A stretch of DNA of 17,383 nt from Okeania sp. (GCF_035285525.1 NZ_JAYKGW010000055.1:1-17383), one strand, 5' to 3'; counted from the first letter of the stretch, positions 3,003 through 16,953 are shown. The notes: generated by a model from the sequence alone, not told the origin. Translations and numbers: made by a program.

Positions 3003-4067
3003 ATGATTGAAGTTGAGAAGTTAAGCAAAATTTATGGTTCAACCTCAGCACTAAAGGAAGTATCTTTTGCGGTAAAACAAGGAGAAATATTGGGATTTTT
3101 AGGTCCTAATGGTGCTGGTAAAACTACAACAATGCGCATTTTAGCTGGATATTTACCTGCTACAACTGGCACTGCTAAAATTGCTGGTTATGATGTACAT
3201 GAAGATTCGATGGCAGTACGACAATTAATTGGTTATTTGCCAGAAATACCGCCTTTATATCCAGAAATGACGGTGGAAGGATTTCTATTTTTTGTAACTA
3301 GAATTAAGCGAGTTTCTGCGGGCGATCGCTCGGCTAGAGTTAAGTTGGCGATGGAAAGATGTGGGTTATTAGAAAAGCAAAAAGTTTTGATTAAAAAATT
3401 ATCGAAAGGATATAAACAAAGGGTTGGTATTGCTCAAGCTTTGGTACACGATCCCCAGGTAATTATATTAGATGAACCGACTGTTGGTCTTGACCCTAGA
3501 CAAATTATTGAAGTAAGAAATTTAATTAAGAGTTTAGCTGAAGAACATACTATTATTTTATCTACTCATATTTTGCCGGAGGTTAGTATGACTTGTAATC
3601 GAGTGGCGATTATTAATTATGGTGAAATTGTGGCGACGGGTAGTCCGGAAGAAATGAGTAATAGGTTAGTAAGTGGATGGGGATATGAAGTGGAAATTGA
3701 GGGAGAAACTGAGCAGATAGAAACGGGGTTAAAGTTATTAGCTGAAGTTCCAGGAATTGAATCTTTAGAACAAATTAAATCAGATGATGAAAATCGTTTT
3801 AGACTACAAATAAAATCTCAACCGGAAATGGAGGTAGGAAAAGAAATTTCTCATACTATAGTTACTGCTGGTTTGAGTTTATGTGAGTTACGTCGAACTC
3901 GTGCTAGTTTGGAAGATGTTTTCTTGGGTTTAACTACTGGTGAAGTTGCTAACAATTCTATGGTTGAAGTGTCTACAAATTCTCTTCTAGATCAGGAAAA
4001 GTCTGAGGAAGATATTAATGTGATAAAGGATAAAAATCAATTACCTGACCCTTGGGAAGATGGATAA
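3003..4067 (+). CDS. ABC transporter ATP-binding protein (ABC-2 / CcmA-GldA-like subfamily)
   Basis: Walker A GPNGAGKTT, Q-loop region, ABC signature LSKGYKQRV, Walker B IIILDEPTVGLD and H-loop STHIL. AGGAGG at 2986-2991 lies 11 nt upstream of the ATG. There is a ~110-aa C-terminal extension beyond the nucleotide-binding domain. Confidence 0.9.
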   Translation: MIEVEKLSKIYGSTSALKEVSFAVKQGEILGFLGPNGAGKTTTMRILAGYLPATTGTAKIAGYDVHEDSMAVRQLIGYLPEIPPLYPEMTVEGFLFFVTRIKRVSAGDRSARVKLAMERCGLLEKQKVLIKKLSKGYKQRVGIAQALVHDPQVIILDEPTVGLDPRQIIEVRNLIKSLAEEHTIILSTHILPEVSMTCNRVAIINYGEIVATGSPEEMSNRLVSGWGYEVEIEGETEQIETGLKLLAEVPGIESLEQIKSDDENRFRLQIKSQPEMEVGKEISHTIVTAGLSLCELRRTRASLEDVFLGLTTGEVANNSMVEVSTNSLLDQEKSEEDINVIKDKNQLPDPWEDG

Positions 4068-4201
4068 TTAATAATTAATAATTACCTCTGGTTAAAATCG
4101 AGAAGATTTAATAGAGCCATCCTGAAATTAATTGATCATGGATAATTAATAATTAATAATTACCTCTGGTTAAAACCGAGAAGATTTAATAGAGCCATCC
4201 T
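4061..4201. repeat. Tandem direct duplication (two 63-bp copies, period 78 bp) spanning the ABC ATPase stop codon
   Basis: tggataattaataattaataattacctctggttaaaa(t/c)cgagaagatttaatagagccatcct occurs at 4061-4123 and 4139-4201 with one mismatch. Copy 1 contains the final GGA codon and the TAA stop of the upstream CDS. Confidence 0.9.
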
Positions 4202-4343
4202 AAATAGGTTGTAATATTTTATCTAACGGGGTTTGGAGAGAACCCCTACAAAAATGGAATTTTCAAACCAATACTTCCTTCTTCCTTTTTCCTTCTTCAT
4301 TCTAAATAATTTGAACTCTATTGTAATATTAAAAAATTAAGAA

Positions 4344-5144: not shown

Positions 5145-5374
5145 AATGAAGGAAGAAGCAAGTTCATTAATGGATAATGGATAATGGATAATTGATAATT
5201 ACTTCTTTCTAAAAGGGAGAAGCTTTTAACTTGAATTATTTAATTAGATATGATATCTAAATGCTGACAGAGGAAGCAGGAAAATAAAAGTTTATAGGGG
5301 AAAAGGTTTTTTTATAACTGATGACAAGAGATGATATACAATATATGTAGAATGAAATTTACAGTATATTTAAA

Positions 5375-5550: not shown

Positions 5551-6168
5551 ATGTCTAAGACAAAAATATTACAAGAGGGTCAGTCTTATACTTTTCGGTC
5601 TTATTTTGAACTGTCTTATGAAGCTGATGAAATTCTAGCAGAGTTAAATTATTCATTAGTTAAATCTCGTTTATCTTTGCCGAAAACAACAAAAAAATTA
5701 GAAAGTTTATCCGAAATACAGAATAAACTAGATGATATTTTACCTTTTGTTAGTTTAAGTAATGAAACTGCTAGAAGAGAAATTTTAGTGTCTCCAATTT
5801 TATTGGAAATTGTTCATTATTGTCATTGTCAGTTAAGAATTGAATATTATTTGAAAGTTAATGACTGGTTAAAAGGTAGTTTGGATTATTTATTACGTTC
5901 GACTAATAATTTATTAGTTATTGAAGCGAAAAATGATGATTTAACTAGAGGTTTTACTCAGCTAGCTGTAGAGTTAATTGCATTAGCTGAAGTTGAAGAA
6001 AATAATATTTTTTATGGTGCAGTGACAATGGGGGATGTGTGGCGTTTTGGTAAATTAAATAAAGCTGAAAAGCAAATTACACAAGATATCAATTTATTTA
6101 AAATTCCAGATGATATAAAGGATTTGGGTGCAGTTTTAGTGGGTATTTTGGAAGGAGTAGAAAATTAA
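5551..6168 (+). CDS. Hypothetical protein with a PD-(D/E)xK nuclease-fold signature (HsdR-N-like / restriction-endonuclease-like)
   Basis: 205-aa ORF. E86 (ILLEIV), D112 (SLDYLL), then E125-A-K127 (LLVIEAKNDD) and Q137 have the spacing expected of a PD-(D/E)xK active site. A decayed paralogue at 14509-15127 has lost exactly these residues. Confidence 0.6.
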   Translation: MSKTKILQEGQSYTFRSYFELSYEADEILAELNYSLVKSRLSLPKTTKKLESLSEIQNKLDDILPFVSLSNETARREILVSPILLEIVHYCHCQLRIEYYLKVNDWLKGSLDYLLRSTNNLLVIEAKNDDLTRGFTQLAVELIALAEVEENNIFYGAVTMGDVWRFGKLNKAEKQITQDINLFKIPDDIKDLGAVLVGILEGVEN

Positions 6169-6177
6169 AATAATACA

Positions 6178-6263
6178 GCAGATTCCAAGTTTCTGAAGTA
6201 CAGATTTTAATAGTTAAATGTTTCTAGTGTGGACATTTTGTCGGTGATGGGTGTACCTGATCA
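6178..6263. repeat. Right arm of the inverted repeat flanking the 5551-6168 gene
   Basis: See the 5375-5462 entry. It starts 10 nt after the stop codon. A third copy in the same orientation follows the pseudogene (15128-15228). Confidence 0.75.
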
Positions 6264-6343
6264 TAACAGGAAGCGCTCTCAAACCTATTTTGGTATCTTT
6301 TGAATTGATCTTCTTTCTAGAAAATTTGTCATCCCTGGGAAAC

Positions 6344-6565
6344 TTAATGATTTTTAGTTGAATAAAAAATCATGCGCATAGACGAGTAAGGGCAGTCAAA
6401 ATCTAACATATCACAATTTTGAGCAGGATGCAACCATAAATCTTTGGCAGCGCATTTTTTTTCGGGGTGCTTCATAAAATGAAAATGTGAATGATTTTCC
6501 ACTGAGGAAGTTATGGATGGAAAGATTTCATCATGGGAAAAACCGGATTCTATATTATTTATCAT
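6344..6565 (-). pseudogene. Small ORF, copy A; possible degenerate C-terminal remnant of a RAYT/IS200-like tyrosine transposase
   Basis: The 73-aa ORF shares ...VENHSHFHFMKHPEKKCAAKDLWLHPAQN.DMLD....YSS.RM.FYSTKNH with copy B. The substitutions between copies are clustered, and every one I checked was nonsynonymous, which suggests no purifying selection. See the findings for the tentative RAYT resemblance. Confidence 0.3.
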
Positions 6566-6593: not shown

Positions 6594-6805
6594 TTTATCA
6601 CTACATATACAGGACTACCCCACTGAGGAAGTTATGGATGGAAAGATTTCATCATGGGAAAAATCTGATTTTCATCTTTATTTCTCCTGAGCGAGTATCT
6701 TGCGGAGGATGGGTGTACCTGATCATAAAAGGAAGCGCTCTTAAACTTATTTTGGTATCTTTTGAATTGATCTTCTTTCTAGAAAATTTGTCATCCCTGG
6801 GAAAC

Positions 6806-6991
6806 TTAATGATTTTTAGTTGAATAAAAAGTCATGCGTATAGACGAATAAATCCAGTTAACATCTAACATATCACTATTTTGAGCAGGATGCAACCATA
6901 AATCTTTGGCAGCGCATTTTTTTTCGGGGTGCTTCATAAAATGAAAATGTGAATGATTTTCCACTAGACATCTCCAAAAATTATCAAGCAC
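6806..6991 (-). pseudogene. Small ORF, copy B; possible degenerate C-terminal remnant of a RAYT/IS200-like tyrosine transposase
   Basis: 61-aa ORF with a GTG start immediately preceded by an in-frame TAA. NFWRCLVEN..HFHFMKHPEKK...VNWIYSS loosely parallels the RAYT C-terminus pattern (R)FWEH.hR......H.DYIh.NPVK......DWP(Y/F)SS that I recall. Confidence 0.3.
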
Positions 6992-7482: not shown

Positions 7483-8946
7483 TCATTCCCTAACATCATC
7501 ATCAGGCAAATAGAATGTCACATTATTGCTATTATTTTTCTCATCATCTTGGATTAACCTTTCACCTTCCTTAATCACCCAATCTGTAAACCTTTCTTCC
7601 TCATATATAACCCATTGGTTGTTCTCATTTTTAACAATCCATCTTGTCTCATTAGATAATCTTTGAAGTAACTTGTAATATTCTATTTTATTTTCTTGAG
7701 ACAGTTCCTCTTGGGTGATTAAAAGTTCTTGTTCAATACTACTCCACTTATTATTATCAATCACTTCTAATAATTTATCCAAAAATTTGGTTCCTGCTCC
7801 TTCTATTGGTAAAGTTATTGTTTTAGCAGCTTTTTTAGGTTTACGAGGGGGAGGAATTTCAATTCCTATTCCTAATAAAATAATAAAACCATCAACAAGT
7901 AGAGCCATAAAAGCTGCTCCAATAGCTGCTTCTTCACCCTTTTCAATTTTCAGAAAAGGTTCAATAATTCTAACTCTAGCATCTTCATCAAAATACTTTG
8001 CTTGGAGTTCTTTATATTTGGGATTTAAAGGGTCTAAACTACCATTATATTTTTCTGGCAAACAAACAAATTCTGGTTCTGTTGGTAAACATTTTGGTTT
8101 AACTTCAGCTAAAGCTTTACGACCTGCATCAAAAATTTCTTGTGGTTCTTTTCCTTCTAATTCATATTCAAAAAAAGGTCTTAGTTCATCAGCTACTCGC
8201 TTAACTCCATTGAATCTAATTTGCAGTTGATTTTTTTCTCTGGTTAGTTGTTGAAATTTAGGTCCTTCTCCTTCTCTGAAAGTGCCTCCTGTTCCACCTA
8301 CTTCATCTTTTATTTGTTTATTTTTGGCGTTAATTTCATCTTCTAATTGTTGAGCTTTTTCTTCAATAGGAGTAAAAATTTCATTGACTAAATTTTGATG
8401 AGCAGATATTGCTCTATTTAAGCCATCTTTTTCTCGTGTTTCTGACACTAAAGTATCATAATAAGCAAAGAAACTTGTATAAACACTGACTATAGAAAAG
8501 GAACCTACAGCCATCCATTTTAACCAACGAGCGTGTTTGAGAGTGGAGCCTGAAGTTAATAGAAATAATAATGCTTGAATAGTGGCACCACCAGACCAAC
8601 CTACATATTTAGGTAAAATTTGTGCTGCTCCATACATGGTTGTAAATCCACTGGTAATGTTGAGGATAATTAATGCTATAAATAGTTTAAAATCTTTTTT
8701 GGGTTTTGGCTCGGTGTATATTTTATTGTTTTCGTTATAAGTTATTATATTGTTTCTATTATTTCGGTTATTATCTATCAAGTAGGAATCGGTTTTTACA
8801 ACATCTTTTGTGTTTCTTTGGTAAGGTTTTTTTCTGTTACATCCTGGTTCGCGACACTCGTTTTCGTCTGGTGACATTTTTTGTAGGATATGGCGATTAT
8901 TTGGATATCCGGTGCATTCCCAAAATCCATTTTCTTGATTGTTCAT
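7483..8946 (-). CDS. Membrane protein: N-terminal Cys/His knuckle, 3 TM helices, coiled coil, 4th TM helix, C-terminal soluble domain. Putative effector of the GTPase cluster
   Basis: 487-aa ORF. C11, H19, C31 and C36 lie in WECTGYPNNRHILQKMSPDENECREPGC, followed by an N/R-rich linker. Hydrophobic helices are at about 86-108, 119-136, 141-163 and 340-364. Residues 165-260 are charged and heptad-like (EEKAQQLEDEINAKNKQIKDE..., REKNQLQIRF). After PPPRKPKK comes a ~120-aa C-terminal domain. No enzyme motif was recognised. Confidence 0.85.
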   Translation of the reverse strand: MNNQENGFWECTGYPNNRHILQKMSPDENECREPGCNRKKPYQRNTKDVVKTDSYLIDNNRNNRNNIITYNENNKIYTEPKPKKDFKLFIALIILNITSGFTTMYGAAQILPKYVGWSGGATIQALLFLLTSGSTLKHARWLKWMAVGSFSIVSVYTSFFAYYDTLVSETREKDGLNRAISAHQNLVNEIFTPIEEKAQQLEDEINAKNKQIKDEVGGTGGTFREGEGPKFQQLTREKNQLQIRFNGVKRVADELRPFFEYELEGKEPQEIFDAGRKALAEVKPKCLPTEPEFVCLPEKYNGSLDPLNPKYKELQAKYFDEDARVRIIEPFLKIEKGEEAAIGAAFMALLVDGFIILLGIGIEIPPPRKPKKAAKTITLPIEGAGTKFLDKLLEVIDNNKWSSIEQELLITQEELSQENKIEYYKLLQRLSNETRWIVKNENNQWVIYEEERFTDWVIKEGERLIQDDEKNNSNNVTFYLPDDDVRE

Positions 8947-8995
8947 AACAAAAAGAGTCTATTAATTTAACTAAGTTTTTCTTGGCTGATGGTGA

Positions 8996-9117
8996 GCTAA
9001 GAAGCATTTAAAGTGCTTTTTAGGAATTCAGAATTCAGAATCCAGACTTCATAAGAAATAAGGGTTACATTCTTAACTAGGTAGAGAAGAAATATGGGGT
9101 TTAAACGTTGAACAGCT
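8996..9117 (-). repeat. 122-bp element, copy A, located 50-170 nt upstream of the 487-aa gene start
   Basis: It aligns without gaps to 14066-14187 at roughly 80% identity by eye. Identical runs include aaagtgctttttaggaatt, attacattcttaactag and aaatatggggtttaaa. Confidence 0.8.
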
Positions 9118-9348
9118 TAATTGTAAAATTTGCCAATAAATTTCATTATAGCAAATATAGTAATCTTATTTGATTCGTGTAAAAAATTCAAAAGCTTTTA
9201 GGGAATAGGGAAGAAAGAATAGGCAATAGACAAGAGTTTCAGTTCTTTTTATTTACTTTTTGATTTGTCACAACCTATTTAATATTTCTATACTAAATTT
9301 AGATTTAATTTCTGTGTAAAATATCTAAGATATTTCTCAAGGCATTTT

Positions 9349-9561
9349 AAGCATTCATTCGTCAGCTATCAGCTATTAGATGTAGCTTCTAGTCCCTGAT
9401 AAAAACTTTATTAATTGAGCCAAAAAAATCTTACTACAAAATCCAGTTTACTTAACATTAGAGTTCATATTAATTGAAATTATGTCCTTAAGCACAGATT
9501 CTTTTTGCTGATAGCTGACTGCTAATAGCTGTTTGCGCAGCATGACCCAGGAAATGCTTAC
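9349..9561. repeat. Palindromic MITE-like dispersed element abutting the stop codon of the 909-aa gene
   Basis: In the left arm aagcattcattcgtcagctatcagc, gtcagctatcagc (9361-9373) pairs perfectly with gctgatagctgac (9507-9519). The outer aagcatt pairs with aatgctt. The terminal 27 nt, gcgcagcatgacccaggaaatgcttac (9535-9561), are identical to 14382-14408. Confidence 0.6.
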
Positions 9562-12290
9562 TAAGGCATTACTTCATTATATGATATCTCACTTTTAACA
9601 TTATGCTCGGCGTAACGCATAATTTCTAATAGCTTTGAATAATCGTAGAAAAGCCAACATTTTTTCAGGAAATTTTTCAGACTTTGAAGGTCTTTAAATT
9701 GACTGATTATTTCTTTAGCACATTCTATCAAATACTTCTTTTCTTCCTCAAAAAAATTCTTGGCTCTCTCAGACAAATTAGTTAAGGTTAAGGATAATGA
9801 ATCTGCACTTAAACGCCAGTGAATATTTATTAATTCTAGACAATCTTTATTGCTTAATTTTGATAAGATAACTTCAGATGTTAGCAAATTCCATAATTTT
9901 TCATCAATTGATTTTTGCTGATGCCAAATTTCAGTAATGTACTCTATAAGTTCTCCACTAATTAATTCGATAGGAGTATCATTACTTAAATCTAACTTTT
10001 CATGTTTATTTGCCCAATAAATAAATTTAGGTACATATTTATGGTAAGTACTTGTTAAATGTTCTCGCATTTTTCTCAATGTTTTGCGATTCAGTAATTC
10101 CCAAGCTTTACTAGCTATAAATTCTGCTTCTATCTCTTTATTTTCTGGATAAGTATCTAATAATTGTAGCCATGTTTCTAGCATCTCAACAGGAAAACCT
10201 TTTCCTACAGTTTTATCCAGAAAATTTGTTCTGTCTATATCATTATTACAAAGAAAATTTGAGAGATTTTGCCAATTTATCCAGCGATTAGAATTACTAG
10301 CTCTAATTAATTTACTTAAAATTGAAATCAAGTCAACTTTGTCTAAAGATTTTTCTGGAGAATTATCTTGAAAATATTGGGAATTAAACCATTCATAAAC
10401 TGCCATGAAATAATTTGTCTGAAACTGTACTCTTTGTTCTGAAAAAGTAACACTCTTTTGAATTGCAGACTCCAATAATGGTAAAGTTTTTTGATAAGTT
10501 ACTAAGTGTGACTGTAGACAAATAAGATAAAGTTTATTAGCTTCAGAATTAGTAAGCTTTAAATCATTAGCAATCTCAGGAATATGGAAAATACCTTTGT
10601 CTTTTTCCAATAAATAGAAAGTTAAATAATCTAATGTATCAGGAAAATTTTTCTGCCAAGATTTCTTTAAATGACTTTGGGCAAAAGTTTCTTTATCTAA
10701 AAGAGGAAAAAGTCGTTCAATAAACAAATGTTTAAAATTATCTCTGGTAATTCTAACTAATGCTAAATCCCATAAGTGGAATTTCTCTTTTTCAGAACGA
10801 AATATCTTTTCACAACCAATTATTAGTTCTTCCAGTTCTTGATAATCTGAATAATTTTTAGAACGTTTTTCTATTAGTTGAAAGCAATCATTTTGTAGCT
10901 CTTGTAAAATATCATCTCTAATATTTTTATCCGTAAACCAATCTATAAACTTATTGGCAATGAGAATTTCTAGAGAATCAAAAAATTTATGATCTGCTTT
11001 TACTATCTCTAAAAATTTATCTGGCAAAAAACGATAGATTGTAAATAACAAACTCAGTATTAAACTGCCATTATTTCCAGATATTGGCAATGCTTTCCAG
11101 AGAAGTTCTAAAAGTTTTAAATTATTTCTATTTTGGGCTGATGAATTTTCCCAAAACTTATGCACCAGAAAATTTTGTACCTTATCTTCCATTCGAGAAA
11201 TATACTTGCCCAAAGTTTCAATTTTGTCTGGTTTCTCTGGTAGGTATTTAAAGATAAAATCTAGTGATGGATTATTTAACTTCAACCAACCATCTACTTC
11301 CTCAAACTCCCAAACTAAATCATCAGAATTATCCTTAGTATTCTTGTCAAGGTACTCACATATAGTAATTAAATCTTCATATTTATCTTTGTTCGGAGCA
11401 ATAAAATATTGAACATATTCATGGTTGAGAAATTCCTCTTTATCAAACTCATATTTATTAAAATCTAGCCACACCATATTTTCAGGTAAAGAACCTATTC
11501 CAGAACCATCTAAATTAACTATTATTTGTGCCCACTTACAATATTTAGGCTCAACCGAACCTATAGCTAAAGATATTTGATTACGCATATTAGTAGGCAA
11601 AAAAAGCAAAATATTATCTAGTAGTTTAAGGGCTAAATTTTTTGCCTTTTGTTCAGCAGTAAGCAATAATCTTTTACCGTTCAAAATTACTGATAATGCT
11701 TGAAGTAAAATATCTTTCCCATTTTCGGGAAGTCTTTTCCATGTTTCTCTTATTGTATTCTTGACTTTTTCATCTGTACCTTCTTCTGCTGGTAATAAAT
11801 TAAGAAAACTTTCTTTTCCTAAAAGCCAAGAATTTTTCTCAGAATCATAAGGTAAATTCACATCACTAAAACTTGGTATTGTCAGATCGCTAAGAGTTCT
11901 TAATAACCAAAAAATTCGGTTGTTAAATGCAGCCATTTCTGCTTCAGAAACAAAAACATAACGGTGCTGAAAAAATGACCGACTGCCACTTCTCAAAAAG
12001 AAATTTTTATCTTTATTAAAAGCAGGAGCGGTTTGAATAAGTATAATTTTTTTGCTAGATAAAACTTGAGTATTATTTCGACAAATTCCTACAGCTTGAG
12101 GATTTTGTTCACCACTTTGACTGCCCCAAAAAGAATAATTTGTTTCTGCAATATCTGCCAAATCTGATAAATTATTGTTTAAATTTTCACTGTAAGAAAC
12201 TATGCGGTATCCACTTTCTTTTCCGACAAACTTACCGTAGATAAACTGGTCAAACTTAGATGTTTGTGACATGATATATTTCTCCTTCAT
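9561..12290 (-). CDS. Large (903-909 aa) predominantly alpha-helical protein with a GAP1-like (GTPase-associated protein 1) N-terminal signature; function unknown
   Basis: Uninterrupted 909-codon ORF. The likely true start is the ATG at 12272 (M7), because a perfect AAGGAG (12287-12282) lies 9 nt upstream of it. The N-terminus FDQFIYGKFVGKESGYRIVSYSENL fits the pattern hydrophobic-Q-h-h-Y/H-G-...-G-[YHF]-R-h-h-x-x-S that I recall from GAP1 N-domains. The remaining ~650 aa are L/K/E/N/F-rich with a helical-repeat character and no catalytic motif. Confidence 0.9.
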   Translation of the reverse strand: MKEKYIMSQTSKFDQFIYGKFVGKESGYRIVSYSENLNNNLSDLADIAETNYSFWGSQSGEQNPQAVGICRNNTQVLSSKKIILIQTAPAFNKDKNFFLRSGSRSFFQHRYVFVSEAEMAAFNNRIFWLLRTLSDLTIPSFSDVNLPYDSEKNSWLLGKESFLNLLPAEEGTDEKVKNTIRETWKRLPENGKDILLQALSVILNGKRLLLTAEQKAKNLALKLLDNILLFLPTNMRNQISLAIGSVEPKYCKWAQIIVNLDGSGIGSLPENMVWLDFNKYEFDKEEFLNHEYVQYFIAPNKDKYEDLITICEYLDKNTKDNSDDLVWEFEEVDGWLKLNNPSLDFIFKYLPEKPDKIETLGKYISRMEDKVQNFLVHKFWENSSAQNRNNLKLLELLWKALPISGNNGSLILSLLFTIYRFLPDKFLEIVKADHKFFDSLEILIANKFIDWFTDKNIRDDILQELQNDCFQLIEKRSKNYSDYQELEELIIGCEKIFRSEKEKFHLWDLALVRITRDNFKHLFIERLFPLLDKETFAQSHLKKSWQKNFPDTLDYLTFYLLEKDKGIFHIPEIANDLKLTNSEANKLYLICLQSHLVTYQKTLPLLESAIQKSVTFSEQRVQFQTNYFMAVYEWFNSQYFQDNSPEKSLDKVDLISILSKLIRASNSNRWINWQNLSNFLCNNDIDRTNFLDKTVGKGFPVEMLETWLQLLDTYPENKEIEAEFIASKAWELLNRKTLRKMREHLTSTYHKYVPKFIYWANKHEKLDLSNDTPIELISGELIEYITEIWHQQKSIDEKLWNLLTSEVILSKLSNKDCLELINIHWRLSADSLSLTLTNLSERAKNFFEEEKKYLIECAKEIISQFKDLQSLKNFLKKCWLFYDYSKLLEIMRYAEHNVKSEISYNEVMP

Positions 12291-12312
12291 TAATTGATAA
12301 TTAGAGTTCGCT

Positions 12313-12363
12313 AAAAAAGTCTTTTTTCCTATTTCCTATTTTCTCCATACCTGTTCCCTAAAT
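12313..12363. repeat. Direct repeat copy 1 in the GTPase / 909-aa gene spacer
   Basis: aaaaaagtcttttttcctatttcctattttctccatacctgttccctaaa resembles the copy at 12497-12544. On the minus strand it reads TTTAGGGAACAGGTATGGAG.AATAGGAAATAGGAAAAAAG, which belongs to the GGGA(A/G)(T/C)AGG repeat class. Confidence 0.8.
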
Positions 12364-12496
12364 CAGTAAACCCTAATTATCTTTGTTTAAATCCTGACTT
12401 AGACTTAATTGAATATCAGGAAATATTCTCGCGCTTTTTTTATCCTGAAAAAGAGAGGTTTTATAACTTTATTTTTCGGTGTATTTCAGATTTGCC

Positions 12497-12544
12497 AAAA
12501 TACTTTTTTCTTATTTCCTATTCCCTCCATACCTATTCCCTAAA
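12497..12544. repeat. Direct repeat copy 2 in the GTPase / 909-aa gene spacer
   Basis: aaaatacttttttcttatttcctattccctccatacctattccctaaa lies ~183 bp from copy 1 in the same orientation. Confidence 0.8.
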
Positions 12545-12586
12545 AGAGATAAATTTTTGGCTTTATTCAAAATTGAAATGCACTCA

Positions 12587-13717
12587 CTAAAATTGTATTT
12601 CAGTATGAGAATTTGTTGAAGAAGTATTAGGAATATTTGGAGGTTGTTCCTTAATTCCTTGTATTAGCCATTCAATAGGTGAATACATATTTATTGGATT
12701 GAAAGGAACTGTCATCTCAATTCTATATTTGTTTTTAGAGTTGTTTGATTTAAACTTTTCTGTATTATTATTTTTATTGCCAAAATTTTCCACGTCTACA
12801 TCCTCTATATCCTCTGTCGAAAATATAGAATCTTCTTCAATTTTATATGTGTTATCTTTAGGTTTTTCTTCTTCGTTAGGTATCACAGGTGATTTGACAT
12901 TATTACCATCTTTATAAGTTCCAAAAGCAGAAATATAGAAGAATTGACAGCGATTTTCTAAACTAGGATTTATGTTCAATTTAGGCAAATTTTTAGAACC
13001 TTCTATTTTTAGATGAAAATAGTTTTTTAACCATGTCAACTTAGCATTTTTACCTCTTCCCAAAATATCTAGAAACATCTGTTCAGCATACTTATATTGT
13101 TCTTCATAAACCTGGAGCTTTTGATTAACTTTAGGATGATCTATTTTAGTAATGCCAAAAGCTACATATTGCTCTAATCTATTTTTATTGCTCTTGATTC
13201 GCATCAGATTAAATAATTTCATTAGTAAGATATAATAAGAATCTTCAAAACTCTGTATATCTTCCTCTAGAGGACTTAATAAAAATAAAATTCCATGACA
13301 TCCAAGAAGATAATCAACTACATTTAATTCGCGATTATTCTCTTCATAAAAGTGCTTTTCTGGATTCTCAAAAACTTCTCCAGGAAGGTCAAAGAATGTT
13401 AATTCAATGTTGGTATTGTCGCTGTTTTCAATTGTGTAAGAATATTTACTATATTCTCCTTTTTGGGTAGGATTTACAAACTCTCCTTTCTCTAAAAGTT
13501 TTGTACCTTCATAAATATAATTTGCTGTAATTTCATCAGTTGGTGTAATTCTTCCTAAATCGGATAATTCTTGATATAATCTGAGCATATAAACAGATTT
13601 TCCGGCGTTGGGAAAACCCCAAATTCCTAAACGAATTTGTGAAGGAAGAATTCGTGTTTTGGGAATTGGTTCATTGATAGATTGATTGAAAGTTTCGTTG
13701 ATTTTGGTGTTAGACAT
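12587..13717 (-). CDS. TRAFAC-class P-loop GTPase (Era/MMR_HSR1-like P-loop) with a low-complexity linker and a conserved-looking C-terminal tail
   Basis: 376-aa ORF. G1 is GFPNAGKS (aa 34-41). The candidate G2 is T84 (VNPTQ). G3 is DLPG (110-113) after the hydrophobic strand IELTFF. G4 is TKID (190-193) after YVAFGI. G5 is SAF (263-265). AAGGGGTG lies just upstream of the ATG. Residues ~280-345 are an acidic, N/K-rich low-complexity stretch, followed by YRIEMTVPFNPINMYSPIEWLIQGI. Confidence 0.85.
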   Translation of the reverse strand: MSNTKINETFNQSINEPIPKTRILPSQIRLGIWGFPNAGKSVYMLRLYQELSDLGRITPTDEITANYIYEGTKLLEKGEFVNPTQKGEYSKYSYTIENSDNTNIELTFFDLPGEVFENPEKHFYEENNRELNVVDYLLGCHGILFLLSPLEEDIQSFEDSYYILLMKLFNLMRIKSNKNRLEQYVAFGITKIDHPKVNQKLQVYEEQYKYAEQMFLDILGRGKNAKLTWLKNYFHLKIEGSKNLPKLNINPSLENRCQFFYISAFGTYKDGNNVKSPVIPNEEEKPKDNTYKIEEDSIFSTEDIEDVDVENFGNKNNNTEKFKSNNSKNKYRIEMTVPFNPINMYSPIEWLIQGIKEQPPNIPNTSSTNSHTEIQF

Positions 13718-13797
13718 AAACTCAATTCACCCCTTGGATAATTAGCTTTACTTCAATATAAATTTACCGCTAATTTAGCAGTGTAAGTATTTCGTGA

Positions 13798-13986
13798 GGA
13801 ATGCTGCGCAAACAGCTATTAGCTATTAGCTATCAGCTATCAGCTATCATTTTTTGTAAGAATTAAGCAAATTTAAGGTTGAATAATCGGCAATTTCATT
13901 TATTAGTTTTAATTTTTATTAGAGATTAATTCCTACTGCGGTTTGACAGTGAGTTAATAACTCATAGCTGACGGCTGAATGCTTAC
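13798..13986. repeat. Inverted-orientation member of the palindromic dispersed repeat family, containing five tandem heptamers
   Basis: The reverse complement of aatgctgcgcaaacagc (13800-13816), gctgtttgcgcagcatt, is an exact match to 9528-9543 (gctgtttgcgcagcat). (C/T)AGCTAT is repeated five times at 13813-13847. The partner arm is catagctgacggctgaatgcttac (13963-13986). The element lies 80-270 nt upstream of the GTPase start. Confidence 0.55.
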
Positions 13987-14065
13987 TTAGCAGTAAAGAA
14001 AAACTATAACTGGACATTCATGGAACGCCCAAATATGTTTATTATAATTGCTCTTGGTAAAATAA

Positions 14066-14187
14066 GCTAAGACAAATTTAAAGTGCTTTTTAGGAATTAA
14101 TAATTCAGAATCCATAATTAATAAGCAATAAGGATTACATTCTTAACTAGATATAAAACAAATATGGGGTTTAAATACTTAACGGCT
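14066..14187 (-). repeat. 122-bp element, copy B, located 350-470 nt upstream of the GTPase gene start
   Basis: Gap-free alignment to 8996-9117 in the same orientation. Like copy A, it is followed by a GGGA.TAGG tract and then a palindromic element ending in the identical 27-mer. Confidence 0.8.
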
Positions 14188-14301
14188 GATAGTATCATCT
14201 ATCAAAGTTAACCATTGTTTTTCTAATTCTGGTTATTCCTTTAATTCTTAAAAAGGAGTAGGGAAAGTAGGTATAATATCAAGGATGAAAAAATAACTTA
14301 T

Positions 14302-14408
14302 GTAAGCATTCAGCTATTAGTCGTCAGCTCAATCAGAATAATACTTAAACTTGAAGAAGTGCTGACAGCTCATAGCTGTTGGCGCAGCATGACCCAGGAA
14401 ATGCTTAC
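14302..14408. repeat. Short palindromic MITE-like element of the same family as 9349-9561
   Basis: gtaagcatt (14302-14310) pairs with aatgcttac (14400-14408), and gtcagc pairs with gctgac. The right arm ends with the 27-mer gcgcagcatgacccaggaaatgcttac. Confidence 0.6.
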
Positions 14409-14508
14409 CTTTTATCTAACACTAAAACAAATAGCTAATAGCTGACTGTTAAATGCTGAATGCTTATTAACTTGCTAATAACTGATAATTGATTGAATGG
14501 AGTCTCAC

Positions 14509-15127
14509 AATGCCTAAAACAAAAATATTACAAGAGGGTAAATCTTATGCTTTTCAGTCTTATTTTGAACTATCTTATGAAGCTGATGAAATTCTAGGAG
14601 AGTTAAATTATTCATTAATTAAATCTGATTGATCTTTGCCCTAGACAACAAAAAAATTAGAAAGTTTATCCGAAGTACAGAATAAACTAGAGAAGATTTT
14701 ACCGTTTGTTAATTTAAGTAATGAAACTGCTAGAAGATAAATTTTAGTGTCTCCAATTTTATTGGAAACTGTTAATTATTGTCATTGCCAGTTAAGAATT
14801 GAATATTATTTAAAAGTCAATAATTGGTTGAAAGGTAATTGAGAATATTTATTATGTTCCACGAATAATTTATTAGTTATTGGAGCCAAAAATGATGATT
14901 TAACTAGAGGTTTTACTCAAATAGATGTAGAATTAATTCCATTAGCTGAAGTTGAAGAAAAAAATATTTTCTATGGTGGAGTGACAATAGGGAATGTGTC
15001 GCATTTTGGTAAATTAAATAAAGCCGAAAAGTAAATTATACAAGATATCAATTTATTGAAAATTCCAGACGATATAAAAGATTTAGGTGCAATTTTGGTG
15101 GGTATTTGGGAAGGAGTAGAAAATTAA
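14509..15127 (+). pseudogene. Decayed paralogue of the PD-(D/E)xK gene at 5551-6168
   Basis: It is colinear with 5551-6168 at roughly 85-90% nt identity by eye. It carries one extra A in the A-run after codon 4 (619 nt versus 618 nt), which causes a frameshift. In the homologous frame there are five nonsense codons (TGA, TAG, TAA, TGA, TAA). The active-site equivalents are altered: LDYLL becomes *EYLL and VIEAK becomes VIGAK. Confidence 0.85.
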
Positions 15128-15486: not shown

Positions 15487-16953
15487 ATGACAAATTTACA
15501 AACTCAAAAACCTAAATATACTCTTCAAGATTGGCAAAGAGGATATGAGTCTCAACCCAATGAATATGATTATTGGATTGATAATATAGAAGGAGAAATA
15601 CCAAAAGATTTAAACGGTACATTTTTCCGTAACGGACCTGGTTTATTAGATATTAATGGTCAATCTATTGCTCATCCTTTTGATGGGGATGGAATGGTTT
15701 GTTCAATAAGCTTTAAAAATGGTCGTGCTTTCTTCCGAAATAGATTTGTAAAAACAGAAGGTTATGTGGCAGAAAAAGCAGCCGGAAAAATTCTTTATCG
15801 AGGTGTTTTTGGTACTCAAAGACCAGGTGGTTGGTTAGCTAATATTTTCGATTTAAAAAGTAAAAATATTGCCAATACTGGTATTCTTTATTGGGGCGAT
15901 AAACTTTTGGCTTTGTGGGAAGGAGCGCAACCTCATCGTTTAAATCCTCAGAATTTAGAAACTATTGGAATTGAAGATTTAGATGGAATTTTACGATCAG
16001 GTCAAACTTTTTCTGCTCACCCAAGAATTGAGAAAGGAAAGGATGGAAAAGGAGATATTTTAGTTAATTTTTCTGTCAAAACTGGTCTATCAAGTATCAT
16101 CACTATTTTTGAATTTAATAGTCAAGGAAAATTACTTAAACGTTACTCTCATTCGATTCCTGGTTTTGCCTTTTTACATGATATGGTAATTACACCAAAC
16201 TACTGTATCTTTTTCCAAAATCCTGTTAGTTTAAATCCTCTTCCTTTTTTGCTAGGATTCAAAGGTGCTGGTCAATGTTTAAAGTTTTTACCTAATAAGT
16301 CAACCCAGGTAATTTTAATTCCTCGTGATGGTAGTAAAGAGATGAAAGTTTTGCCAACTCAACCTTGTTTTGTCTTTCATCATGCTAATGCTTGGGAAGA
16401 AAATGGAGAGATTTATGTAGATTCTATTTGTTATGAATCTTTCTCACAAGGAGACTTAGCTGGTGATTTTCGGGAAGTAAATTTTGATGCTATTCCAGAA
16501 GGTCAGTTATGGCGATTTAAGATTAATTTATCAGAGAATAATGTAGAACATAAATTAGTGGAAAGTCGTTGTTGTGAATTTCCAACTTTAAATCCAAATA
16601 ATGTAGGAAAAGCTAATAGATATTTGTTTATGGGAGTTGCTGAACAACTAAGTGGAAATGCTCCTTTACAAGCAATATTAAAAATCGATTGGCTAACAGG
16701 AAAACGTCAAGTTTTTAGTGTTGCGCCGCGAGGTTTTACAGGAGAACCTTTATTTGTTCCTTTTCCAAATGGGGTGAATGAGGATGATGGTTGGTTATTA
16801 ATGTTGATGTATGATGCAGCCGAAAATCGGTCGGATGTTGTGATTTTGGATGCTCGTGATTTGGAGAAAGAACCTGTGGCAAGATTACATTTAAAGAATC
16901 ATATTCCTTATGGTTTGCATGGCAGTTTTACATCTCATTATTTTGGGGAATAA
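15487..16953 (+). CDS. Carotenoid cleavage oxygenase (RPE65/CCD family; apocarotenoid-15,15'-oxygenase-like)
   Basis: 488-aa ORF with family hallmarks: FRNGPG, HPFDGDGMV, and the four iron-ligand His contexts FSAHPR, FLHDMV, FHHANAWE and YGLHGSF. The length is typical of cyanobacterial ACO/Diox1-type enzymes. Confidence 0.9.
   Translation: MTNLQTQKPKYTLQDWQRGYESQPNEYDYWIDNIEGEIPKDLNGTFFRNGPGLLDINGQSIAHPFDGDGMVCSISFKNGRAFFRNRFVKTEGYVAEKAAGKILYRGVFGTQRPGGWLANIFDLKSKNIANTGILYWGDKLLALWEGAQPHRLNPQNLETIGIEDLDGILRSGQTFSAHPRIEKGKDGKGDILVNFSVKTGLSSIITIFEFNSQGKLLKRYSHSIPGFAFLHDMVITPNYCIFFQNPVSLNPLPFLLGFKGAGQCLKFLPNKSTQVILIPRDGSKEMKVLPTQPCFVFHHANAWEENGEIYVDSICYESFSQGDLAGDFREVNFDAIPEGQLWRFKINLSENNVEHKLVESRCCEFPTLNPNNVGKANRYLFMGVAEQLSGNAPLQAILKIDWLTGKRQVFSVAPRGFTGEPLFVPFPNGVNEDDGWLLMLMYDAAENRSDVVILDARDLEKEPVARLHLKNHIPYGLHGSFTSHYFGE

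What the first reader, a model, noticed from the sequence alone, without database searches (positions are those of the whole stretch)
7483..14408. Three-gene GTPase / giant helical protein / 4-TM coiled-coil protein cluster: candidate uncharacterised conflict (anti-phage) system
Three long co-oriented minus-strand genes form the core of a repeat-rich accessory segment set between housekeeping genes: a 376-aa GTPase, a 909-aa helical protein and a 487-aa membrane protein. None carries a metabolic or housekeeping signature. The combination looks like an NTP-dependent switch (intact G1-G5), a very large repeat-rich scaffold or sensor, and a membrane-inserted protein that could act as an effector. 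That is the logic of NTPase-regulated abortive-infection or conflict systems. The N-terminus of the large protein (FDQFIYGKF..GYRIVSYS) resembles, from memory, the GTPase-associated protein 1 (GAP1) N-domain. That domain comes from GTPase-centred conflict systems predicted purely computationally in multicellular bacteria (Aravind-group comparative genomics, 2020). As far as I know these systems have no experimental characterisation. A single-domain GTPase paired with this Cys-knuckle/4-TM/coiled-coil partner is not an arrangement I can place in a described defence family. The nearby PD-(D/E)xK gene (5551-6168) might be a further component, but I do not assume so.
Basis: partly seen in the sequence, partly recalled or inferred. 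Interest (0 to 1): 0.88.

Follow-up and report, generated by a model that had tools for sequence, protein, structure and literature searches.

The report
Eroded dynamin-linked GTPase membrane cassette
The three genes are real and belong together, but they are a cut-down copy of a larger, previously undescribed four-to-five-gene cassette that moves between cyanobacterial chromosomes and plasmids and probably acts at the cell envelope, perhaps against phages, though nobody has tested this.

Summary
Three intact, co-oriented minus-strand genes lie in an Okeania sp. contig: a GTPase (12587-13717), a large helical protein (9561-12272, 903 aa from the corrected start) and a membrane protein (7483-8946).

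- **GTPase family:** the GTPase is a DO-GTPase (Pfam PF19975, 41.5 bits against a cut-off of 27).
- **GAP1 recollection:** it is not supported. None of 50 family members, nor the family consensus, matched any GAP1 or GASH model.
- **Link to the GTPase:** the large protein's first ~310 residues form a new domain. Nine metagenomic proteins fuse this domain directly to a DO-type GTPase.
- **Full cassette:** the trio is part of a conserved cassette of dynamin-like protein, DO-GTPase, one or two large proteins, and the membrane protein. It occurs in Okeania, Trichodesmium erythraeum IMS101, Nostoc, Chroococcales, on a Stanieria plasmid and on a contig with relaxase genes.
- **State in the window:** the dynamin gene has been deleted and repeats fill the gaps between genes.
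- **Hotspot:** the chromosomal site carries a different DO-GTPase/membrane cluster in other Okeania strains.
- **Known defence systems:** none matches in PADLOC 2023.

My reading is an accessory, envelope-associated GTPase machine. A conflict or defence role is plausible but unproven. I class it as a new variant of the computationally predicted DO-GTPase systems.

The parts
12587..13717 (-). DO-family (TRAFAC) GTPase, 376 aa. It has a G domain, an acidic low-complexity linker and a conserved C-terminal motif (KYxI..F.P.N..PIEWLI.GI..PP).
   Evidence: Pfam DO-GTPase1 scores 41.5 bits against a cut-off of 27, and DO-GTPase2 scores 23.8. The G1, Walker B DxxGE and TKxD motifs are conserved in 36 homologues.
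9561..12272 (-). Large protein, 903 aa from the corrected start. It has a conserved N-module of ~310 aa (a new GTPase-associated domain) followed by a ~600-aa alpha-solenoid.
   Evidence: No Pfam family matches it. The family has 102 representatives among 1.84 billion proteins, and the N-module is the conserved part. Nine representatives fuse the N-module to a DO-GTPase. In the AF2 model, residues 170-310 are alpha/beta and 320-900 are helical repeats. Foldseek finds only generic solenoids.
7483..8946 (-). Membrane protein, 487 aa. In order: cytoplasmic zinc knuckle, TM1-3, a ~175-aa coiled-coil hairpin predicted to be periplasmic with paired cysteines, TM4, and a cytoplasmic alpha/beta C-domain.
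   Evidence: Alignment of 24 homologues. AF2 model with pLDDT 73.7. Positive-inside charge counts and cysteine pairing. DUF4407 matches only below threshold, in 13 of 24 members. No PDB relative.
13718..14478 (.). Deletion scar. About 0.7 kb of repeat-rich non-coding DNA replaces ~3.5 kb that in sister genomes holds the dynamin-like gene and its upstream region.
   Evidence: tblastn with three cassette DLPs finds nothing in the window. blastn synteny with L045, L046 and L001 jumps from the PD-DExK copy straight to the GTPase. Repeat copies D3, D6, D7 and I2 lie here, as does a CAGCTAT heptamer array.
12273..12586 (.). Expanded GTPase-to-large intergenic gap of 314 nt, against ~30 nt in intact cassettes. 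It contains two copies of a ~38-nt GGGAAyAGGTATGGAG..AATAGGAAATA motif.
   Evidence: Sequence read.
8947..9560 (.). Expanded large-to-membrane intergenic gap of 614 nt, against ~30-130 nt in intact cassettes. It carries small dispersed repeats that are also present upstream of the GTPase.
   Evidence: Repeats D3 (8995-9117 ~ 14065-14187), D6 (9514-9561 ~ 14361-14408) and I2.
5551..6168 (+). Intact PD-(D/E)xK nuclease-fold gene (205 aa). It is the usual boundary gene of this hotspot, here duplicated to the far side of the cluster.
   Evidence: PADLOC PD_DExK (CRISPR-associated model) at 6e-28. The same gene flanks the cassette in L001, L045 and L046, and flanks the alternative cluster in L022 and L024.
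14510..15124 (+). Pseudogene copy of the PD-(D/E)xK gene, in the ancestral position next to where the dynamin gene used to be.
   Evidence: 82% amino-acid identity over 205 codons. Six in-frame stops. It aligns to the PD-DExK gene of L045, L046 and L001 in the syntenic position.

Best explanation
The three genes are the surviving part of a conserved, horizontally mobile cassette found mainly in filamentous and colonial cyanobacteria.

**Cassette order**
1. A bacterial dynamin-like protein (DLP, ~720-780 aa).
2. A DO-family GTPase (~370-400 aa).
3. One or two 'N-module + alpha-solenoid' proteins (~900-1050 aa).
4. A membrane protein made of a zinc knuckle, three TM helices, a periplasmic coiled-coil, a fourth TM helix and a cytoplasmic domain (~460-510 aa).

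**Shown**
- The gene order is conserved.
- The four proteins diverge in step with each other across loci.
- The large protein's N-module is fused to the DO-GTPase in some relatives, so the two very probably bind each other.
- The GTPase and membrane-protein families also pair up in a second, different cluster type.
- The cassette lies on plasmids and in a replaceable chromosomal hotspot.

**Inferred**
- The membrane protein anchors the machine in the inner membrane and reports the state of the envelope through its periplasmic helical hairpin.
- The DO-GTPase is the switch, read or controlled by the N-module.
- The fast-evolving solenoid is a scaffold or recognition surface.
- The DLP is the output that remodels or seals membrane.
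- The biological role is most likely conflict-related: defence against phage or other invaders, or controlled cell sacrifice in a filament.

**In this window** the DLP gene has been deleted and small repeats have inserted between the genes. The copy is either a DLP-less variant, like the intact three-gene form in Nostoc UHCC 0252, or on its way to decay.
For: **Family assignment**
- Pfam assigns the GTPase to DO-GTPase1.

**Synteny**
- The order DLP, GTPase, large, membrane is seen in L002/L016, L004/L015, L009/L046, L010, L013/L045, L014, L017, L018 (T. erythraeum IMS101), L044 (Stanieria plasmid pSTA7437.02), L049 and L050.
- All three loci from the GTPase-anchored metagenome scan were syntenic.
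- DLP-less forms with intact genes exist: L020 (GTPase, large, membrane) and L005/L006 (GTPase, membrane).

**Functional coupling**
- Nine representatives are N-module::DO-GTPase fusions.
- L047 reads DLP, GTPase, fusion protein, large protein.
- Pairwise identities of the four proteins correlate across loci (r = 0.90-0.96). The DLP is the most conserved (56%) and the large protein the least (34%).
- A second cluster type pairs a distant membrane homologue with a DO-GTPase2-type GTPase.

**Mobility and turnover**
- It lies on a plasmid next to IS4 and NB-ARC genes.
- It lies on a contig with relaxase, T4CP and ParA-like genes, followed by EAD1-trypsin genes.
- The Okeania site between the PD-DExK gene and ABC2_membrane holds the full cassette, eroded cassettes or the alternative cluster. 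DLP remnants sit beside the alternative cluster in KiyG1.

**State of the window copy**
- DLP deletion is shown at protein level and DNA level.

**Topology**
- K+R are enriched before TM1, in loop 2 and after TM4. Loop cysteines come as pairs or not at all.

**Precedent**
- Dynamin-like proteins act in phage defence: Eleos/LeoA-LeoBC (bioRxiv 10.1101/2022.05.11.491447) and DynA (cited there).
Against: - No experiment exists for any member.
- No PADLOC model matches the three proteins or their orthologues.
- The neighbourhood survey is mixed. T. erythraeum has GyrA next door, Nostoc has AlaRS, and L005 sits among zapA, pepP and biosynthetic genes. Extra LeoA/LeoBC-like genes occur in only one locus.
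- Nothing was found in phage or viral collections either way.
- The roles assigned to each protein are inferences from architecture. The first 165 residues of the N-module could not be modelled (pLDDT ~30).
- The identity correlations are partly explained by shared species phylogeny.
- Several Okeania copies are broken (L001, L008, L010). Some of this could be assembly error in MAGs.
Confidence: 0.55

Rival explanations
1. It is a true, highly divergent GAP1-type DO-GTPase conflict system as defined by Kaur et al. 2020. On this view the large protein is a GAP1 orthologue whose N, M and C domains have drifted beyond the reach of the Pfam models, and the membrane protein is the variable effector.
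For: - The GTPase is in the DO-GTPase family.
- The large gene lies directly downstream of the GTPase and is sometimes fused to it. Kaur et al. describe exactly this for GAP1 (PMC7159879).
- EAD1- or EAD8-trypsin genes follow the cassette in L004 and L020.
- Those authors also note zinc ribbons and TM segments as typical of these systems.
Against: - No GAP1-N1, GAP1-N2, GAP1-M, GAP1-C, GASH or GAAD hit in 14 + 36 members, in nine fusion or distant proteins, or in the N-module consensus, at E up to 10.
- The cassette has no FNIII-repeat or GASH gene.
- The paper never mentions dynamin and does not list cyanobacteria among the hosts of GTPase-centric systems.
- In the fusions the N-module comes before the GTPase.
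Confidence: 0.2
2. It is an accessory physiological module for membrane dynamics or envelope-stress repair, not a conflict system. A DLP would be regulated by a small GTPase and anchored by a membrane protein, for thylakoid or plasma-membrane maintenance, cell-cell junctions or filament fragmentation.
For: - Cyanobacterial DLPs are proposed membrane-remodelling factors. One described clade ('HSR1') is defined by a GTPase gene downstream of the DLP (PMC5827413).
- DO-GTPases next to psp operons were predicted to act in membrane stress (PMC11237479).
- Some flanks are housekeeping.
- No toxin-like enzymatic effector is present in the core cassette.
Against: - The distribution is patchy even within Okeania.
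- It occurs on a plasmid and on a conjugative-element contig.
- At the same site it is replaced by a different cluster.
- Gene decay is frequent.
- The large protein evolves fast.
- EAD-linked protease genes lie alongside in two loci.
Confidence: 0.25
3. In this particular genome the cluster is a non-functional relic. Loss of the dynamin gene and its promoter region, together with repeat insertions, has silenced or uncoupled the three remaining genes, which have simply not yet accumulated stop codons.
For: - The DLP and the upstream region are deleted.
- The intergenic gaps have grown from ~30-130 nt to 314 and 614 nt and contain dispersed repeats.
- The adjacent PD-DExK copy is a pseudogene.
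- The same site in Okeania SIO1I7 shows advanced decay.
Against: - All three ORFs are full length, with every conserved motif intact.
- Natural DLP-less versions with intact genes exist in Nostoc and in L005/L006.
- The Shine-Dalgarno sequence is retained before the large gene.
Confidence: 0.3

Closest known systems
DO-GTPase / GAP1 'GTPase-centric' conflict systems (Kaur, Burroughs, Iyer, Aravind 2020, eLife; predicted computationally only)
   Same: - Same GTPase family (Pfam DO-GTPase1/2, Walker B DxxGE).
- A large partner protein is encoded immediately downstream and occasionally fused to the GTPase.
- Zinc ribbons and TM components are present.
- Enriched in multicellular or social bacteria (cyanobacteria, and Myxococcota for the distant membrane homologues).
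- EAD-tagged proteases lie nearby in some loci.
   Different: - The partner is not detectably GAP1, and there is no GASH or FNIII component.
- A dynamin-like protein is the first gene, which that paper does not mention.
- The zinc knuckle sits on a separate DUF4407-like membrane protein rather than on the GTPase.
- The hosts are cyanobacteria, which are not among the phyla listed for those systems.
Eleos (LeoA / LeoBC) dynamin-like anti-phage system (Millman et al. 2022) and B. subtilis DynA
   Same: A bacterial dynamin-like GTPase is the likely membrane-acting output. Experiments show that such proteins can protect against phage.
   Different: - Eleos is a pair of DLPs with no DO-GTPase, no N-module protein and no membrane partner.
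- The cassette DLP matches the LeoA model only weakly (E = 6.6e-5, C-terminal helical part).
- The window itself has no DLP at all.
Cyanobacterial BDLP 'HSR1 clade' (Jilly et al. 2018, Front Plant Sci)
   Same: It is defined by a small GTP-binding protein gene directly downstream of a cyanobacterial DLP gene. The window GTPase also gives a weak MMR_HSR1 hit.
   Different: That work describes only the two-gene adjacency and proposes membrane dynamics. It does not describe the large protein or the membrane protein. I could not verify that the loci are the same.
Pfam DUF4407 membrane proteins
   Same: The architecture is similar (TM helices, long coiled-coil, further TM). There are repeated weak matches, in 13 of 24 members, best E = 2e-4.
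   Different: All scores fall below the gathering threshold. The match covers only the coiled-coil stretch, so it may reflect composition alone. DUF4407 itself has no known function.

Membership tests
DO-GTPase (Pfam PF19975 / PF19993) | Score above the Pfam gathering threshold | tested here: met
   DO-GTPase1 scores 41.5 bits against a cut-off of 27. Most homologues carry PF19975 and/or PF19993.
DO-GTPase (Pfam PF19975 / PF19993) | TRAFAC-type G motifs with a conserved Glu in Walker B (DxxGE) | tested here: met
   GFPNAGKS, FFDLPGE and TKID are present. D110, G113, T190, K191 and D193 are invariant in 36 sequences. The feature definition comes from PMC7159879.
DO-GTPase (Pfam PF19975 / PF19993) | Two paralogous GTPase copies (present in 38% of described systems, so not obligatory) | tested here: not met
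   The window and most cassettes have a single DO-GTPase. Two DO-type domains occur only in L047.
GAP1-type GTPase-centric system (Kaur et al. 2020) | Partner protein with a GAP1-N1 or GAP1-N2 domain | tested here: not met
   No such Pfam hit in 14 close members (E <= 1), in 36 distant members (E <= 0.01), or in the consensus plus 7 further proteins (E <= 10). A profile-profile test against the Pfam models could not be run.
GAP1-type GTPase-centric system (Kaur et al. 2020) | GAP1-M and GAP1-C domains | tested here: not met
   Same searches.
GAP1-type GTPase-centric system (Kaur et al. 2020) | GASH-domain protein (N1 type) or FNIII-repeat protein (N2 type) in the operon | tested here: not met
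   No GASH or FNIII hit in any cassette protein. The cassette genes are fully accounted for by DLP, GTPase, large and membrane.
GAP1-type GTPase-centric system (Kaur et al. 2020) | Partner gene immediately downstream of the GTPase, sometimes fused to it | tested here: met
   Gene order holds in all loci. There are nine fusion representatives. This shows an analogous role, not homology.
GAP1-type GTPase-centric system (Kaur et al. 2020) | Variable effector fused to the partner or linked through EAD or GAAD domains | tested here: inconclusive
   EAD1-trypsin and EAD1 genes follow the cassette in L004, and EAD8-like trypsin genes follow it in L020. No EAD was found on a core protein, and none is present in the window.
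DUF4407 (PF14362) | Score above the gathering threshold | tested here: not met
   16.2 bits against a cut-off of 31.3. Thirteen of 24 members match weakly, best E = 2e-4, and only in the coiled-coil region.
Eleos / dynamin defence system (LeoA, LeoBC) | Two adjacent dynamin-like genes matching the LeoA and LeoBC models | tested here: not met
   The window has no DLP. The cassette DLP gives LeoA E = 6.6e-5 and LeoBC E = 0.024, and there is only one DLP per cassette.
Any system in PADLOC-DB v2.0.0 | Match of a core protein to a system model | tested here: not met
   No hits for the GTPase, the large protein or the membrane protein, from the window or from L002. DefenseFinder and post-2023 models were not available.

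The most novel reading that the evidence does not exclude
The full cassette is a new family of envelope-surveillance immune machine in multicellular cyanobacteria. A periplasm-spanning coiled-coil sensor is coupled through a DO-type GTPase, and a previously unrecognised GTPase-binding N-module on a fast-evolving solenoid, to a dynamin-like protein. That protein either seals the membrane at the site of phage attack or sacrifices the cell. On this reading the large-protein N-module would be a new class of bacterial GTPase regulator (GAP, GEF or effector).
Probability: 0.3. Interest if true: 0.8.

Novelty: new variant of a known kind. Interest (0 to 1): 0.6.

Why it matters
DO-GTPase systems are so far only a computational prediction, and bacterial dynamins in immunity are poorly understood.

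- **A defined system to test.** The cassette physically links the two. It offers cultured sources (Stanieria PCC 7437 plasmid, Trichodesmium erythraeum IMS101) for asking how a small GTPase switch controls a dynamin at the bacterial envelope.
- **A new protein module.** The work defines a ~310-residue domain whose fusion to the GTPase predicts a direct interaction.
- **A cyanobacterial hotspot.** It documents a chromosomal site where alternative GTPase/membrane clusters replace one another. This is the kind of site used to discover defence genes.
- **Ecological relevance.** For bloom-forming marine cyanobacteria (Trichodesmium, Okeania), any new phage-resistance or cell-death mechanism matters ecologically.

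Tried and rejected
- **GAP1 homology of the large protein.** Three Pfam rounds were run, including distant relatives, fusion proteins and a family consensus. There were no hits, so it is rejected at HMM-to-sequence sensitivity.
- **N-domain shared with the 344-aa TM protein of the second cluster type.** Both begin with a similar-looking YG(R/K)...YR motif. hhalign gave probability 0.3%, so this is rejected.
- **Structure route.**
  - The AF2 model of the large protein is mediocre (pLDDT 68; first 165 residues unmodelled). Foldseek against PDB gives only generic HEAT/ARM/karyopherin solenoids with TM <= 0.22.
  - For the membrane protein the best match is the TorS sensor helical bundle at E = 0.1, which is not significant.
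- **PDB sequence searches for all four families.** Nothing significant. YcjX was the top hit for the GTPase at E = 0.27.
- **Remnant of the DLP gene in the window.** None at protein or DNA level.
- **Phage or viral carriage.** No match in 50,697 phage records or in IMG/VR.
- **Defence-island enrichment.** The survey of 72 flanking proteins was mixed. It found TnpB, Uma2, NB-ARC, EAD-trypsin and one locus with LeoA/LeoBC-like genes, but also gyrase, AlaRS and biosynthetic genes. I do not claim enrichment.
- **Other scans.** The promoter scan was no better than shuffles. There are no tRNA or Rfam elements.
- **Supplement of Kaur et al.** It held no alignments from which GAP1 sequences could be taken.
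- **T. erythraeum locus tag.** I could not link it to the 'HSR1 clade' entry Tery_1654.


Full report
**What is in the window**

The contig comes from Okeania sp., a filamentous marine cyanobacterium; the database protein P0001 is 100% identical and sits on a 17,383-bp contig.
- a 376-aa GTPase (12587-13717);
- a large protein (9561-12290 as listed);
- a 487-aa membrane protein (7483-8946).

The large gene most probably starts at the second ATG (12272), giving 903 aa. An AAGGAG ribosome-binding site lies inside the first six codons, and all homologues begin MSQxSKF.

The flanks are housekeeping genes: a MoaB-like protein, Psb28, an ABC transporter ATPase and permease, and an RPE65-type carotenoid oxygenase. 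The segment between them is full of dispersed and tandem repeats.

**What the proteins are**

*GTPase.* It scores 41.5 bits on Pfam DO-GTPase1 (cut-off 27) and 23.8 on DO-GTPase2. An alignment of 36 homologues shows several conserved features:
- the P-loop;
- an invariant Thr;
- the DxxGE Walker B, which Kaur et al. give as the hallmark of the family (PMC7159879);
- a TKxD specificity motif;
- after an acidic low-complexity linker, a conserved C-terminal motif.

*Large protein.* It has no Pfam, NCBIfam or PADLOC match. An exhaustive profile search of 1.84 billion cluster representatives found only 102 relatives. The first ~310 residues are the part shared by the most distant ones.

The AF2 model (pLDDT 68) leaves residues 1-165 unmodelled. 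It shows an alpha/beta unit at 170-310 and helical repeats from 320 to 900. Foldseek returns only generic solenoids.

*Membrane protein.* From N- to C-terminus it has:
- a W-x-C...H...C-x2-C zinc knuckle;
- three TM helices, the third running on into a ~75-residue helix;
- a helical hairpin;
- a fourth TM helix;
- a ~110-residue alpha/beta C-domain.

Lys and Arg are enriched before TM1, in the TM2-TM3 loop and after TM4. The loop cysteines occur as pairs or not at all. I therefore infer that the coiled-coil hairpin faces the periplasm. The DUF4407 resemblance is repeated but always below threshold, and it is confined to the coiled-coil. None of the families has a solved structure.

**The real unit is larger**

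Relatives of all three proteins occur together and in the same order. In most loci a fourth gene stands in front, encoding a ~720-780-aa dynamin-like protein (Pfam Dynamin_N 27.4 bits; weak LeoA match). The order dynamin-like protein, DO-GTPase, large protein, membrane protein is found in:
- an uncultured bacterium (L002);
- a Coleofasciculaceae MAG (L004);
- Okeania SIO2B3 and SIO2C9, and a related MAG;
- a Trichodesmium MAG and T. erythraeum IMS101;
- a Chroococcales MAG;
- two metagenome contigs;
- plasmid pSTA7437.02 of Stanieria cyanosphaera PCC 7437, where RefSeq annotates 'dynamin family protein' followed by three hypothetical proteins.

Okeania carries two tandem paralogues of the large gene. 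Shorter natural forms also exist. Nostoc UHCC 0252 has GTPase, large and membrane genes. A contig with gammaproteobacterial-looking neighbours has only the GTPase and membrane genes.

Pairwise identities of the four proteins track each other across loci (r = 0.90-0.96). The dynamin-like protein is the most conserved and the large protein the least. This is compatible with inheritance as a unit, although shared species phylogeny contributes to the correlation.

**A direct link between the GTPase and the large protein**

Nine cluster representatives of 580-723 aa consist of the N-module followed by a complete DO-type GTPase. One of them sits in the order dynamin-like protein, GTPase, fusion protein, large protein. 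Such fusions are the classical sign of interacting partners.

The large protein therefore plays the role Kaur et al. gave to GAP1, which they describe as encoded downstream of the GTPase and sometimes fused to it. It is nevertheless not detectably GAP1. No GAP1-N1/N2/M/C or GASH model matched 14 close members, 36 distant members, the fusion proteins or the family consensus, at E up to 10. That paper also never mentions dynamin, and it does not list cyanobacteria among the hosts of GTPase-centric systems.

**The window copy is eroded**

No trace of the dynamin gene remains at protein level. DNA alignment with three sister loci shows that ~0.7 kb of repeat-rich DNA (13782-14475) replaces ~3.5 kb that includes it.

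The gaps between the remaining genes have grown from ~30-130 nt to 314 and 614 nt and hold small repeats. The PD-(D/E)xK gene that normally bounds the cassette is present twice:
- a pseudogene with six stop codons in the ancestral position (14510-15124);
- an intact copy on the other side (5551-6168).

The same site in Okeania SIO1I7 shows a split dynamin gene, fragments of the second large gene and an internally deleted membrane gene.

**The site is a hotspot**

In intact Okeania genomes the cassette is inserted between the permease gene and the auxiliary-component gene of an ABC transporter operon.

In Okeania SIO3B5, SIO3I5 and KiyG1 a different cluster sits next to the same permease gene (92-96% identical), bounded on its other side by the PD-(D/E)xK gene in SIO3B5 and SIO3I5. 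That cluster holds:
- a zinc-ribbon coiled-coil protein;
- a DO-GTPase2-type GTPase;
- a small TM protein;
- a distant homologue of the membrane protein.

In KiyG1 it lies next to leftover dynamin-gene fragments. In T. erythraeum the second cluster type is accompanied by Hsp70-like and AAA+ genes, which recalls one GAP1-N2 theme in Kaur et al. Elsewhere the cassette lies beside IS elements and an NB-ARC gene. It also lies on a contig with relaxase, coupling-protein and ParA-like genes, followed by EAD1-trypsin genes and further dynamin-like genes.

**How it probably works**

Shown:
- the gene order is conserved;
- the N-module is fused to the GTPase in some relatives;
- GTPase and membrane families pair up in two cluster types;
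- the cassette is mobile and turns over.

Inferred:
- The membrane protein anchors the complex and senses the envelope through its periplasmic hairpin.
- The DO-GTPase is the switch.
- The N-module reads or regulates the switch.
- The rapidly diverging solenoid is a scaffold or recognition surface.
- The dynamin-like protein remodels membrane as the output.

Dynamin-like proteins do protect bacteria from phage (Eleos and DynA). Together with the accessory, patchy, decaying distribution, this makes a conflict role the best guess, at about even odds. A non-immune role in membrane dynamics or envelope stress is the main alternative.

The flanking-gene survey was mixed and does not show defence-island enrichment. 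No viral carriage was found.

**Verdict**

The GTPase family assignment, the co-occurrence and the accessory nature are right. The GAP1 recollection and the three-gene boundary are wrong, and the defence function is unproven.
- The cassette is best classed as a new variant of the computationally predicted DO-GTPase systems. It is distinguished by a dynamin-like first gene, a new GTPase-associated N-module and a DUF4407-like membrane partner carrying a zinc knuckle.
- In the literature available here I found no description of it beyond a possible two-gene mention as the 'HSR1 clade' of cyanobacterial dynamins.
- Interest is moderate to high for the cassette as a whole. It is lower for this window, which holds a truncated copy.

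Noticed in passing
window 5551-6168 and 14510-15124: A PD-(D/E)xK nuclease-fold gene (PADLOC 'PD_DExK, CRISPR-associated' model, 6e-28) is duplicated in direct orientation on both sides of the cluster. The copy in the ancestral position is a pseudogene with six stops, and the displaced copy is intact. The same 205-aa gene marks the hotspot boundary in most Okeania genomes examined.
   Followed up: partly
window 6235-6503 and 6697-6965: A 269-nt direct repeat (94% identical) lies 462 nt apart between the PD-DExK gene and the membrane gene. Each copy carries a short ORF with the shared peptide ENHSHFHFMKHPEKKCAAKDLWLHPAQN. Its nature is unknown.
   Followed up: no
window 9507-9561, 13783-13837 (inverted), 14361-14408; also 8995-9117 ~ 14065-14187: A family of small dispersed repeats (GCTGAyWGCTnATAGCTG...CATGACCCAGGAAATGCTTAC) looks like MITEs. 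There are also heptamer arrays (CAGCTAT x5 at 13813-13849; TAATGGA x4.6 at 5168-5199). They occupy the enlarged gaps of the cluster.
   Followed up: partly
window 15487-16953 versus L045 1850-3592: In sister genomes the far side of the cassette continues with the ABC_transp_aux and DUF4340 genes of the ABC transporter operon. In the window an RPE65-type oxygenase follows instead, so a further rearrangement has separated the operon halves.
   Followed up: no
L020 13621-14751 (Nostoc sp. UHCC 0252): A ParA/MinD-like ATPase (KGGVGR-type P-loop) ends in a zinc knuckle, W-x-C-x-G...H...C-x2-CG-x-x-RP. This is the same type as the N-terminus of the membrane protein. It lies three genes downstream of the cassette, after two EAD8-like genes, one of them fused to trypsin. 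It may be a shared adaptor or ligand-binding module.
   Followed up: no
L028 2717-15960 (Trichodesmium erythraeum IMS101, ~6.55 Mb) and L022, L024, L026, L031, L033, L034: A second conserved cluster has these genes: zinc-ribbon coiled-coil protein, DO-GTPase2-type GTPase, ~340-aa protein with C-terminal TM helices, and a distant membrane-protein homologue. In Trichodesmium it also has an Hsp70-like protein, coiled-coil proteins, a double AAA+ protein and a radical-SAM-activase-like gene. As far as I could find it is uncharacterised.
   Followed up: partly
P0026 and P0043: Two database proteins join part of the membrane protein (64-73% identity over 26-56% of its length) to a DUF1822 domain. 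A DUF1822 gene also lies ~10 kb from the cassette on the Stanieria plasmid. This may reflect recombination chimeras or a real association.
   Followed up: no
L046 9796-10017 and L009 6655-6876: A 73-aa fragment matching the GTPase C-terminus lies between the two tandem large genes. The second large gene therefore probably arose by duplication of a GTPase-plus-large unit, followed by loss of the GTPase copy.
   Followed up: no
L032, L037-L043 (Myxococcota and related MAGs): Distant homologues of the membrane protein (23-33% identity) occur in Myxococcota. They lack the cyanobacterial GTPase and large genes by my profiles. They are sometimes preceded by, or fused to, proteins of ~1000-1350 aa. 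Their partners were not examined.
   Followed up: no
window 4060-4205: A 78-nt unit is repeated 1.9 times (97% identical) in the spacer between the ABC ATPase and permease genes.
   Followed up: no
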